DNA of 21,626 bases from Octopus sinensis (lineage: Eukaryota), in NCBI RefSeq assembly GCF_006345805.1, contig NW_021827576.1, forward strand, positions 1 through 21,626, in the 5' to 3' direction. Under the pieces are notes generated by a model, which ran no database searches, was not told the origin of the DNA, and saw nothing but the letters and a program-made list of their open reading frames with translations. Of this stretch, positions 3,026-9,921 are shown piece by piece; positions within the stretch are counted from its first letter, which is position 1, and each line of letters opens with the position of its first letter. The translations under genes and the position numbers were made by a program.

Positions 3026-3102
3026 TTGTAAAAACGGTAAGATAACAAAAGAAAGAGACCTCAATATTATGTAAATAGAAGAAATTTATCTGTAAAATAA
3101 TA

Positions 3103-3268
3103 ATGTTACAATTATTCAATAGCCAGATAAAACTCTGAGTTTCCGATGCTGAAGTGGAATCCACAACAGCATTCAGATGGCCAGATAACCGAAGAGATGG
3201 TGTTGTGGATTTCCACTTCGGCATCCGAAACTCAGAGTTTTATCTTGGCTATTGAATAATTGTCACAT
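3103..3268. repeat. About 70-bp inverted repeat (arms 3103-3172 and 3197-3268), probable Penelope-like pseudo-LTR inversion
   Basis: The arms are reverse complements with a few mismatches and indels; the element is flanked by (TA)n on the left and (CA)n on the right. Confidence 0.85.
3180..3249 (+). ncRNA. Type I hammerhead-ribozyme-like motif with a U4>C core variant
   Basis: GCCA-GATAA CCGAAGA GATG..GTGG-ATTT-CCAC..CATC C GAAA CT-CAG-AGT T TTATC-T-TGGC: 9-bp stem I with one bulge, long stem II, palindromic AACTC-A-GAGTT stem III, GUU triplet ending at 3239. Confidence 0.65.
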
Positions 3269-3275
3269 ATTAATT

Positions 3276-3388
<113 letters not shown>

Positions 3389-7331: not shown

Positions 7332-7425
7332 CTTCCTGGTCCTTTCATGATAGGCTTCCTCGTGGTCCTTTCATTATTGGCTTCCCCGTGGTCCTTTCAT
7401 TATTGGCTTTCTCGTGGTCCTTTCA
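7332..7425. repeat. 26-bp minisatellite, about 3.6 copies (GGCTTCCTCGTGGTCCTTTCATTATT)
   Basis: TGGTCCTTTCA at 7337, 7363, 7389 and 7415 (period 26). Confidence 0.92.
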
Positions 7426-7998: not shown

Positions 7999-8267
7999 CA
8001 CCCTGGGAACATGCTCCTTGCATAGCTTCGAAAAATATTATGGACGGTACATTTAGTGCATTAGGCATTTCTTATCACCCTCAGGAGTCATGATATACTC
8101 AATCGGGTACAGTCAATCGTTTACATAACCTGAACATCTTTCTGCCTGTACATCAGTACCCGCGTATGTATTTCCCTATTTTTGTTCTCCATGCATTTTT
8201 ACTTTCCGACCCAACCCAATGCCCTATTTAAGTGCCTGATTCGCTTAAATCCTGATCTATTAGATCT

Positions 8268-8279
8268 ATATATATATAT

Positions 8280-8310
<31 letters not shown>

Positions 8311-8468
8311 GTATATATGTATACATATATATACACACACACACACATATATAACCTACATACACATACATACATATATCTATATCTATTCATCTGTCTA
8401 TCTATCATATATATATATATGTATGTGTGTGTGTATGTATGTAAGTAATATATATATATATATATATA
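8268..8468. repeat. Compound (TA)n/(TG)n/(CA)n microsatellite
   Basis: Directly visible; forms the left flank of the ribozyme element. Confidence 0.92.
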
Positions 8469-8663
8469 AAATTATTACATTATATAAAAGGGCTAGTAAA
8501 TAAATTACTTTGCCGCATACTGAACTCATTAGAATAGCAGCTAAAAAACTTTTTTAAAACTATTTCTAATACTTAAAGAAAACCTCTCTCCTATGTGTTT
8601 GCTCAATTCAACTCACGCAAATATGGGGGTAGAGACATTAAAAAATCAAGTGCAAAGGTTATT

Positions 8664-8716
8664 TGAGAACGTACGTTTTCAGATTAGTCAAAGTCGACAT
8701 TTCTATCATCAGCTCA
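8664..8716 (-). ncRNA. Type I hammerhead ribozyme motif, copy 1
   Basis: TGAG CTGATGA TAGAAATGTCGACTTTGACTAATCT GAAAAC GTAC GTT CTCA; differs from copies 2 and 3 by indels around GAAA. Confidence 0.65.
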
Positions 8717-9207
8717 GACTCCCTGGTTTGGATTTGAAAACACTGAAGTGGGAGCATACCCTTTCGCTTCCTCTCGCTTCTGAAGATCTGCTCGTAACTA
8801 ACAGTGCCAACAAACTCAAAATGCAAGCGAAGAATTTCTGCTCTCCCCTTTCCACCAGCGTGGTTAAAATCAGTAAACACTATGCTTTTTTCGGGTAAAA
8901 TCGCGGCATTATATAGAGAGAGATGATTATAATTTCAACAATTGAGGGTAATAATTATTAATCAATTTCACCAAGTATCATATGCAAAGGGACCATTTAA
9001 GCGAATTCAAATTATTACATTATATAAAAGGGCTTGGTAAAATAAATTACTTTGGCCGCATACTGAACTCATTAGAAATAGCAGCTAAAAAAACTTTTTT
9101 AAAACTATTTCTAATACTTAAGAAACCTCTCTCATATAGTGTTTGCTCAATTCAACTCACGCAAATATGGGGGTAGAGACATTAAAAAATCAAGTGCAAA
9201 GGTTATT

Positions 9208-9262
9208 TGAGAACGTACGTTTCAAGATTGTAGTCAAAGTCGACATTTCTATCATCAGCTCA
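9208..9262 (-). ncRNA. Type I hammerhead ribozyme motif, copy 2
   Basis: TGAG CTGATGA TAGAAATGTCGACTTTGACTACAATCTT GAAAC GTAC GTT CTCA. Confidence 0.72.
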
Positions 9263-9499
9263 GAACTCCCTGGTTTGGATTTGAAAACACTGAAAGTGGG
9301 AGCATACCCTTCGGCTTCCTCTCGCTTGAAGATCTGCTCGTATAACTAACAGTTGGTGGAAAGGGGAGAGCAGAAATTCTTCGCTTGCATTTTTGAGTTT
9401 GTTGGCACTGTTAGTTACGAGCAGATCTTCAGAAGCGAGAGGAAGCCGAAAGGGTATGCTCCCACTTTCAGTGTTTTCAAATCCAAACCAGGGAGTTCC

Positions 9500-9552
9500 T
9501 GAGCTGATGATAGAAATGTCGACTTTGACTAATCTTGAAACGTACGTTCTCA
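9500..9552 (+). ncRNA. Type I hammerhead ribozyme motif, copy 3
   Basis: Stem I TGAG/CTCA; core CTGATGA 9504-9510; stem II AGA/TCT plus GTC/GAC; GAAA 9537-9540; palindromic stem III ACGTACGT; predicted cut after GUU at 9548. Confidence 0.75.
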
Positions 9553-9831
9553 AATAACCTTTGCACTTGATTTTTTAATGTCTCTACCCCCATATTTGCG
9601 TGAGTTGAATTGAGCAAACACATATGAGAGAGGGTTTCTTTAAGTATTAGAAATAGTTTTAAAAAAGTTTTTTTAGCTGCTATTTCTAATGAGTTCAGTA
9701 TGCGGCAAAGTAATTTATTTTACCAAGCCCTTTTATATAATGTAATAATTTGAATTCGCCTTAAATGGTCCCTTTGCATACTGAATACTTGGTGAAATTG
9801 ATTATTAATTAATTTTACCTCAATTGTTGAA

Positions 9832-9833
<2 letters not shown>

Positions 9834-9862
<29 letters not shown>

Positions 9863-9921
9863 ATATGTTGTGTATAATATATGTGTGTGTGTGTGTGTGT
9901 ATGTGTGTATGTATATATATA
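9834..9921. repeat. (TA)n/(TG)n microsatellite
   Basis: Directly visible; forms the right flank of the ribozyme element. Confidence 0.92.

What the first reader, a model, noticed from the sequence alone, without database searches (positions are those of the whole stretch)
8469..9833. Hammerhead-ribozyme array (two tandem copies plus one inverted) in a (TA)n tract: candidate retrozyme or Penelope-like circRNA source
Seen: three near-identical copies of a 420-480 bp non-coding unit, each containing TGAG-CTGATGA-[stem II]-GAAAC-GTAC-GTT-CTCA. The two minus-strand motifs are 544 nt apart. Established: this is type I hammerhead topology; minimal hammerheads with a palindromic stem III (here ACGTACGT) occur in Penelope-like pseudo-LTRs and metazoan non-LTR retrozymes and can cleave as dimers, and tandem copies release monomers that can circularise. 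Inference: a minus-strand transcript could self-excise an RNA of about 540 nt and be mobilised in trans by a Penelope RT. Caveats: stem II closes with U-U instead of the usual G-C, copy 1 has an indel at GAAA, and the tandem junction (8908-8931) has a short TA/GA linker.
Basis: partly seen in the sequence, partly recalled or inferred. Interest (0 to 1): 0.8.

Follow-up and report, generated by a model that had tools for sequence, protein, structure and literature searches.

The report
Hammerhead-carrying Penelope-like jumping repeat
This is one insertion of a roughly 557-base repeat, present thousands of times in this animal genome, that carries a hammerhead-ribozyme motif (self-cutting predicted, untested) and likely spreads by borrowing the enzymes of Penelope-type retrotransposons; the kind is already known, but its two fixed ends give a handle on how such elements are copied.

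Summary
The three pieces at 8469-9838 are not a three-copy array but one insertion of a young, dispersed, non-coding ~557-bp tandem unit (2,742 exact core matches in the genome, 0 in the control). The type I hammerhead motif is supported by compensatory changes in stem II across sister families 68-92% alike; cleavage is untested and Rfam gives no hit. Among 85 fetched elements, 61 are head-to-head inversions, 5' ends vary, (TA)n tracts flank them, and 3' ends fall at two fixed sites ~95 nt apart, one of each per inversion (55 of 56 evaluable). That is Penelope-like (PLE) integration anatomy. Intact TA-flanked RT+GIY-YIG PLEs exist here, but none sharing the unit's sequence was found. Corrections: the unit is ~557 nt, the 'linker' is part of it, U-U has precedent, and this locus is a poor circle source (copy 1 motif broken as assembled; read-through RNA would form a long hairpin). 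One locus records a mixed multimer template, against an obligatory monomer circle. Verdict: new family of a known kind (non-LTR retrozyme / non-autonomous PLE).

The parts
8449..8468 (.). Left (TA)n target tract (end of the 8267-8468 microsatellite region)
   Evidence: sequence; TRF
8469..9353 (-). Inverted arm, 885 bp, about 1.6 monomers; starts (5'-truncated) at monomer position 54 and ends at the 'short' fixed end (position 399)
   Evidence: blastn against a natural monomer from L033
8469..8857 (-).
   Evidence: 96% identity to reference monomer
8664..8716 (-). Hammerhead motif 1, disrupted as assembled next to GAAA; U17 at 8668
   Evidence: not matched by the exact pattern
8858..9353 (-).
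   Evidence: 95% identity to reference monomer
9208..9262 (-). Hammerhead motif 2, core intact, 2-nt insertion in the stem II internal loop; U17 at 9212
9353..9354 (.). Head-to-head inversion junction joining the two 5'-truncated arms, no overlap or gap
9354..9838 (+). Direct arm, monomer positions 1-487, ending at the 'long' fixed end
   Evidence: 98% identity to reference monomer
9500..9552 (+). Hammerhead motif 3: stem I 9500-9503/9549-9552, CUGAUGA 9504-9510, stem II 9511-9536, GAAA 9537-9540, palindrome ACGUACGU 9540-9547, U17 9548 (predicted cut)
   Evidence: covariation
9704..9729 (+). Predicted hairpin just 5' of the short end site (site itself about 9735-9752, passed over in this arm)
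   Evidence: folds in most of 10 family representatives; function inferred
9791..9819 (+). Predicted 13-15 bp AT-rich hairpin just 5' of the long end site
   Evidence: folds in 10 of 10 family representatives; function inferred
9834..9866 (.). Right (TA)n target tract
   Evidence: sequence; TRF 9832-9866

Best explanation
The locus is a single insertion of a non-coding, ~557-bp, hammerhead-motif-bearing tandem repeat family with Penelope-like insertion anatomy, which was likely copied from a multimeric RNA and integrated into a (TA)n tract in trans by the reverse transcriptase and GIY-YIG endonuclease of an autonomous Penelope-like element. Steps: (1, inferred) a tandem array is transcribed on the hammerhead strand; (2, inferred) the PLE enzyme nicks both strands of a (TA)n tract and primes two cDNAs at two internal TATA-containing sites of the RNA, about 95 nt apart, each just 3' of a conserved hairpin; (3, shown as anatomy) each cDNA runs a variable distance through successive monomers and the two are joined head to head, giving one long end, one short end and a variable inversion centre, or a simple 5'-truncated copy if only one survives; (4, predicted) the hammerhead is weak as a monomer and cleaves as a dimer through its 8-nt palindrome, cutting some multimers into unit-length RNA that may circularise, but cleavage is not required for every insertion.
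For: Copy number and dispersal: 2,742 exact core matches vs 0 control; 130 matches from 40 scored of 1,549 candidates at mostly 94-99% identity on many chromosomes. Anatomy of 85 elements: 61 inverted, 23 direct, 1 complex; 55 of 56 inversions with both ends classifiable have one long and one short end (5 more had an end cut by the locus edge or atypical); direct copies end at the long (14) or short (9) site. In the subset picked by the hammerhead pattern rather than by a query that favours long ends: 25 of 26. TA tract at both ends in 75 of 82, one end in 7, none in 0 (3 at locus edges dropped). These match PLE features in PMC8557442 (partial tandems, inverted 5'-truncated copy, tail at one end, microsatellite bias) and two internal RT start sites, both-strand nicking and AT-rich targets in PMC11167929. 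Ribozyme: 11 of 11 core positions kept in family B, found without a core pattern, against 143 of 190 neighbouring positions (p about 0.04); 15 of 18 motifs intact in family C copies picked by the 3' block; 4 pairs with two-sided change, covariation score 0.179 (1 of 500 shuffles; slid controls <=0.064). Rough double-hammerhead energy -26.0 vs -23.6 kcal/mol for two free monomers. U-U at the base of helix II occurs in a cleaving axolotl hammerhead (PMC7229834). Machinery present: stop-free 781-aa RT+GIY-YIG frames with a CxxxxCxxC linker in 4 of 4 loci checked, TA-flanked. Template: 2 of 145 5' truncation points lie within 5 nt of the cut site, 2.9 expected; L106 has distinct unit variants repeated in the same order from the outer end in both arms.
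Against: No autonomous PLE sharing the unit's sequence in 105 PLE-bearing loci; every nearby hit that was inspected was a separate insertion set off by a TA tract or ending at one, and L087's PLE has an unrelated terminal repeat. No Rfam hit. The monomer hammerhead is not the predicted minimum fold (-6.7 vs -11.8 kcal/mol; z about 0 against shuffles); U-U or A-A at 10.1/11.1 in 10 of 14 representatives; GUU triplet. Within the young family the core is not clearly more conserved than the rest (1.0% vs 1.5% minority letters, with A6 changed in 12 of 194). The 11-of-11 invariance over 10 families is partly circular, since most families were found with core patterns. In 10.64898/2026.07.22.740005 only 1 of 9 predicted retrozyme dimers cleaved. 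Arm-phase evidence is thin and mixed: 6 sites outer-aligned (4 from L106), 3 centre-aligned, 2 neither; gene conversion or assembly polishing could mimic it.
Confidence: 0.8

Rival explanations
1. Classic retrozyme cycle: arrays are cut to monomers, ligated to ~557-nt circles, and the circle is the obligatory template for rolling reverse transcription into tandem cDNA.
For: Arrays reach about 16 units in one arm (L031) and at least 13 (L139); truncations do not cluster at the cut site, as expected of a circle; 9 private substitutions are shared by all covering monomers of a locus; the monomer folds as a circle at z = -4.4 against 30 shuffles; mussel, coral and axolotl retrozymes make such circles (PMC7229834).
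Against: L106 holds at least three distinct unit types in the same order in both arms; 19 private substitutions are shared by only some monomers (214 single); core-breaking changes are shared by both arms in L063 and L228, and such a unit could not cut itself out; PLE insertion in vitro does not need hammerhead activity (PMC11167929).
Confidence: 0.3
2. The element moves by the PLE route but the hammerhead is a non-cleaving structural relic or protein-binding fold.
For: Weak predicted fold; no Rfam hit; broken cores occur in inserted copies; PLE minimal hammerheads show low or no activity alone (PMC4209133).
Against: Core kept and stem II covarying across families down to 68% identity; position 7 and 17 vary only among permitted letters (U/C/A); family B and E have a 3-bp stem III.
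Confidence: 0.2
3. A DNA-level element (Helitron-like rolling-circle transposon, foldback/MITE, or satellite spread by recombination or circular DNA) that happens to carry the motif.
For: Tandem arrays, terminal hairpins and TA targets also occur in such elements (recalled, not tested); four-unit periodic variants in L139 suggest some local duplication.
Against: Two unequal fixed 3' ends, variable 5' truncation, variable inversion centre and 23 copies with no inverted end fit none of these; arms are polarised relative to the hammerhead strand.
Confidence: 0.05
4. The inverted arm arises by fold-back self-priming of one cDNA rather than by two primings.
For: Self-priming was proposed for PLE inversions (PMC3846280); centre-aligned variants in L038 and L070; changes shared by both arms (L063, L228).
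Against: L106 is outer-aligned at 4 of 4 sites; the one-long-one-short rule (55 of 56) needs both ends set by target priming; junctions are asymmetric.
Confidence: 0.15

Closest known systems
Metazoan non-LTR retrozymes (PMC7229834; 10.64898/2026.07.22.740005)
   Same: Non-coding, low-GC (34.5%) tandem repeats with one type I hammerhead per unit, monomers to multimers, dispersed, thousands of copies; weak palindromic helix III; U-U at the base of helix II as in axolotl HHR_Amex2.
   Different: Unit ~557 nt, above the 150-450 bp range of the first paper (inside the 51-972 bp of the second); most insertions are head-to-head inversions with two fixed ends in (TA)n, which the passages I read do not describe for retrozymes; circular RNA not shown here.
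EN+ Penelope-like elements, Neptune-type and Naiad insertion anatomy (PMC8557442; PMC3846280; PMC11167929)
   Same: 5' truncation, partial tandems, inverted 5'-truncated copy, 'tail' at one end only, (TA)n targets hiding any target duplication, hammerhead in the repeat.
   Different: No ORF; tail ~95-100 nt instead of 30-40; no autonomous element with a homologous pseudo-LTR found.
Non-autonomous Chlamys elements such as MRC1 (PMC8557442, passage)
   Same: Non-autonomous PLE derivatives with multicopy head-to-tail insertions.
   Different: Those share 3' sequence with autonomous families and mostly lack canonical hammerheads; this family has the motif and no identified parent.
PLE minimal hammerheads (PMC4209133)
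   Same: Short 4-5 bp helix I, palindromic 15.2-16.2 segment, long helix II, predicted dimer action.
   Different: No G10.1-C11.1 pair; helix II is split by a 3x3 internal loop; a 2-3 bp helix III can form.

Membership tests
Type I hammerhead ribozyme | Core CUGANGA ... GAAA ... UH | tested here: met
   Exact in 2 of 3 window copies; 2,742 genomic matches vs 0 control; 11 of 11 in independently found family B
Type I hammerhead ribozyme | Three helices around the core, open ends in stem I, pairing supported by variation | tested here: met
   91.7% of cells paired vs 26-44% in slid controls; two-sided changes in 4 stem II pairs; stems I and III invariant and so uninformative
Type I hammerhead ribozyme | Usual purine-pyrimidine pair at 10.1-11.1 (common, not absolute) | tested here: not met
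   Unpaired in 10 of 14 representatives, U-U in the window; A-U, U-A or G-U in 4; U-U precedent cleaves (PMC7229834)
Type I hammerhead ribozyme | Match to an Rfam hammerhead model | tested here: not met
   No hammerhead family at E<=10
Type I hammerhead ribozyme | Loop I-loop II tertiary contact | not tested
   An extended stem I with an internal loop is predicted; contacts not analysed
Type I hammerhead ribozyme | Site-specific self-cleavage | not testable with these tools
   Needs in vitro assay
Non-LTR retrozyme | Head-to-tail repeats, one type I hammerhead per unit | tested here: met
   93 full units, median 557 bp, arrays up to ~16 units per arm
Non-LTR retrozyme | Non-coding, low GC, no LTR pair | tested here: met
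   GC 34.5%; no PLE protein match in the window; only short frames. PBS/PPT not searched
Non-LTR retrozyme | Expressed as unit-length linear and circular RNA | not testable with these tools
   Only contigs of runs not on record as RNA were available
Non-autonomous Penelope-like element | Fixed 3' end, variable 5' truncation, partial tandems | tested here: met
Non-autonomous Penelope-like element | Inverted 5'-truncated copy joined head to head | tested here: met
   61 of 85 elements
Non-autonomous Penelope-like element | Tail extension at one end only | tested here: met
   55 of 56 classifiable inversions; length ~95-100 nt, not 30-40
Non-autonomous Penelope-like element | Microsatellite / AT-rich target | tested here: met
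   TA at both ends 75 of 82, one end 7 of 82
Non-autonomous Penelope-like element | Sequence shared with the pseudo-LTR of an autonomous PLE | tested here: inconclusive
   None in 105 loci sampled from thousands of candidates; the sample is small and biased to three protein families

The most novel reading that the evidence does not exclude
An old, parentless retrozyme lineage (families down to 68% identity, all non-coding) that keeps hijacking TA-targeting Penelope enzymes through two hairpin-plus-TATA signals rather than shared sequence, and whose insertions record coordinated double priming on an uncut multimeric RNA: genomic evidence that animal retrozymes integrate by the PLE mechanism without an obligatory monomer circle.
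Probability: 0.35. Interest if true: 0.65.

Novelty: new member of a known kind. Interest (0 to 1): 0.42.

Why it matters
Animal retrozymes are assumed to be moved by Penelope-like enzymes through RNA circles, but the papers read rest that on co-occurrence, sequence similarity and the existence of circles. This family shows the PLE integration signature directly in a retrozyme-type repeat, with a sharp one-long-one-short end rule, two candidate priming signals and intact PLE reading frames in the same genome. That makes three open questions testable on a 557-nt RNA: how PLE inversions and tails form, whether the hammerhead matters for mobility, and whether the template is a circle. The window's own copy is an ordinary, probably inert insertion.

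Tried and rejected
Rfam: no hammerhead hit; only microsatellite- and hairpin-driven miRNA matches below gathering scores. Expression: no RNA holder listed on record; contigs of 4 runs guessed to be RNA (two organism labels, four studies) cover 30, 27, 30 and 30 of 30 bins of a monomer, and one contig spans the unit junction, but contigs show neither strand nor circularity and a tandem gives the same joint, so this is not used as evidence; A>G and T>C differences there cannot be told from subfamily variation. Partner hunt: the long loose end led to a sister non-coding family (B), not to an ORF; family C first looked like an autonomous pseudo-LTR because L124 has RT and GIY-YIG just downstream, but a TA tract and another repeat end separate them and family C is itself a tandem unit; L087's PLE, the 781-aa family, the L124 family and a third PLE-like protein family show no homologous terminal repeat. 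Shared minority variants across loci do not sit at the same array index (84 of 378 pairs, 96.8 expected), so no common master array was traced. Within-element divergence (1.25-1.4%) against nearest other element (median 0.67%) was not used, because the minimum over 84 elements is biased low and assembly errors dominate. Target-site duplications cannot be read inside (TA)n. Earlier findings of the scan: none. The supplement of PMC7229834, which may list further species with retrozymes, could not be read; bioRxiv supplements are closed.

Full report
Observation. The window is a whole 21.6-kb contig of a 2.72-Gb animal genome; I take the host to be an octopus from recalled repeats, not from any call. 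Between (TA)n tracts lie three segments 93-96% alike. The motif TGAG-CTGATGA-stem II-GAAAC-GTAC-GTT-CTCA matches exactly at 9500-9552 (+) and 9208-9262 (-), with 0 matches in 100 shuffles; the third copy differs next to GAAA. U17 falls at 9548, 9212 and 8668, so the 544-nt spacing and the predicted cut are right. Rfam finds no hammerhead.

The family. A search with the right-hand segment gave 130 matches from the 40 scored of 1,549 candidates, many in tandem at about 557-bp spacing. An exact core pattern has 2,742 matches against 0 for the reversed control. Mapped on a natural monomer, the window reads positions 399-1 and 559-54 on the minus strand and 1-487 on the plus strand. Sister families were found at 75-92% (A2-A4, B, D, E) and 68-73% (C) identity to the reference; tandem junctions were seen for A, B, C and D, and all have the same end sites where examined.

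Insertion anatomy. Of 85 elements of at least 300 bp in the fetched A- and D-family loci, 61 are head-to-head inversions, 23 are direct and 5'-truncated, 1 is complex (my gap rule split L137 in two). Hammerhead-strand 3' ends fall at two sites, about 383-404 (short) and 483-487 (long; alignments run on into the TA tract). In 55 of 56 inversions with both ends classifiable there is one of each; 5 others had an end at a locus edge or atypical. Half of the loci came from a query that favours long ends, so I recounted the 40 loci picked by the core pattern: 25 of 26, with direct copies ending 7 short and 5 long; independent choice would give about half (my arithmetic). TA tracts flank both ends in 75 of 82, one end in 7. 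Each end site has its own TATA and follows a predicted hairpin and CCCT-like run; the long-end hairpin folds in 10 of 10 representatives. PMC8557442 (passages and section 15) describes partial tandems, an inverted 5'-truncated copy, a 30-40 bp tail at one end and microsatellite bias as PLE features. PMC11167929 (parts 1-2 of 4) shows a PLE protein nicking both strands of AT-rich DNA and starting cDNA at two internal RNA sites that define the tail, with hammerhead activity dispensable in vitro.

The ribozyme. In 14 representatives, 91.7% of pair cells are paired (26-44% in slid controls), four stem II pairs change on both sides, and the covariation score is reached by 1 of 500 shuffles, a control that ignores relatedness. 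Stems I and III are invariant. Pair 10.1-11.1 is unpaired in 10 of 14; U-U has a cleaving precedent in axolotl (PMC7229834 passages and section 14). Core invariance over ten families (11 of 11 against 195 of 370) is partly circular because most families came from core patterns; family B did not (11 of 11 against 143 of 190, p about 0.04), and family C copies picked by the 3' block keep the core in 15 of 18 motifs. Within the young family the core is only slightly more conserved than the rest. The monomer hammerhead lies about 5 kcal/mol above the best fold and is no more stable than shuffles; a rough double-hammerhead sum is favourable (-26.0 against -23.6), as expected for PLE-type motifs acting as dimers (PMC4209133, parts 1-2 of 4). 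Cleavage is untested; in 10.64898/2026.07.22.740005 (parts 1-3 of 5) only 1 of 9 predicted dimers cleaved.

Template: circle or multimer. Truncation points avoid no region and do not gather at the cut site (2 of 145 within 5 nt, 2.9 expected), so cleaved linear monomers were not the template. Of 242 private substitutions at positions covered by two or more monomers, 9 are shared by all, 19 by some, 214 single (singles include assembly errors). L106 carries three unit types, repeated in the same order from the outer end in both arms: a mixed multimer copied twice from the same terminal unit. Core-breaking changes are shared by both arms in L063 and L228. Across loci the phase signal is mixed (6 outer, 3 centre, 2 neither), and conversion or polishing could mimic it. 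I therefore favour multimers as a usual template and leave monomer circles open.

The partner. The genome is rich in PLEs (5,029 first-look GIY-YIG candidates), including a young family with stop-free 781-aa RT+GIY-YIG frames flanked by (TA)n (the RT score is just under Pfam's cut-off). None of 105 PLE-bearing loci, nor L087 or L124, has a terminal repeat homologous to the unit; neighbours that were inspected are separate insertions in shared TA tracts. The partner is inferred from anatomy, not identified.

This locus. Releasing a 544-nt monomer needs motif 1, which is disrupted as assembled (the contig has many one-base indels, so this may be an error), and a transcript entering from the flank would pair copy 2 with antisense copy 3. 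Long arrays elsewhere (L031, L034, L139) are better candidate sources.

Novelty. It is a new member of a known kind: a non-LTR retrozyme-type, non-autonomous Penelope-like repeat. Six paper searches listed no description of such a family in cephalopods; PMC13282606 (passages) counts active Penelope-like families in an octopus and has no occurrence of 'hammerhead'; PMC3846280 (passages) offers self-priming as an alternative for inversions. Supplements that could list more species were not readable. What is somewhat new is the clear PLE integration signature in a retrozyme, the long tail, and the multimer record. Interest 0.42.

Noticed in passing
L087:3217-7530 (G000:C1:29140600-29150599): Near full-length Neptune-like PLE (RT, CxxxxCxxC linker, GIY-YIG; broken by a stop and frameshifts) lying between two arrays of the studied repeat in a TA tract; its own end holds a different hammerhead-like motif with a U3/A8-type core.
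   Followed up: partly
L202-L206, L210-L213 (e.g. L204:2343-6240): Young ~3.9-kb TA-flanked PLE family, 96-99% alike, stop-free 781-aa frame in 4 of 4 checked; long 3' UTR with internal repeats and a variant hammerhead-like motif about 100 nt from the end.
   Followed up: partly
L204:6851-8271: Another, unrelated TA-flanked inverted element with a type I hammerhead motif in each arm: probably a second retrozyme-like lineage.
   Followed up: no
L164:2588-2850, L197:165-480, L191:1136-1350: More distant relatives of the unit that keep the end hairpins, suggesting the lineage is older than family C.
   Followed up: partly
L139: Array of at least 13 units whose private variants recur four units apart, suggesting a four-unit duplication or tetramer template.
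   Followed up: partly
family A, core position A6: A6 is changed in 12 of 194 copies, more than any other core position, at varying array positions; mutation hot spot or assembly artefact, unexplained.
   Followed up: partly
window 18043-18536 (related copies at 965-1131, 16308-16451, 19688-20004): 183-bp tandem of 2.7 copies of a dispersed repeat that I recall as a tRNA-derived SINE; not checked.
   Followed up: no
window 3085-3285: Long imperfect hairpin (about 90-bp arms), MITE-like.
   Followed up: no
window 11557-11884 and 16857-17187: Inverted pair of another dispersed repeat, 89-94% complementary, about 5 kb apart.
   Followed up: no
window 7337-7425: 26-bp minisatellite, 3.4 copies.
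   Followed up: no
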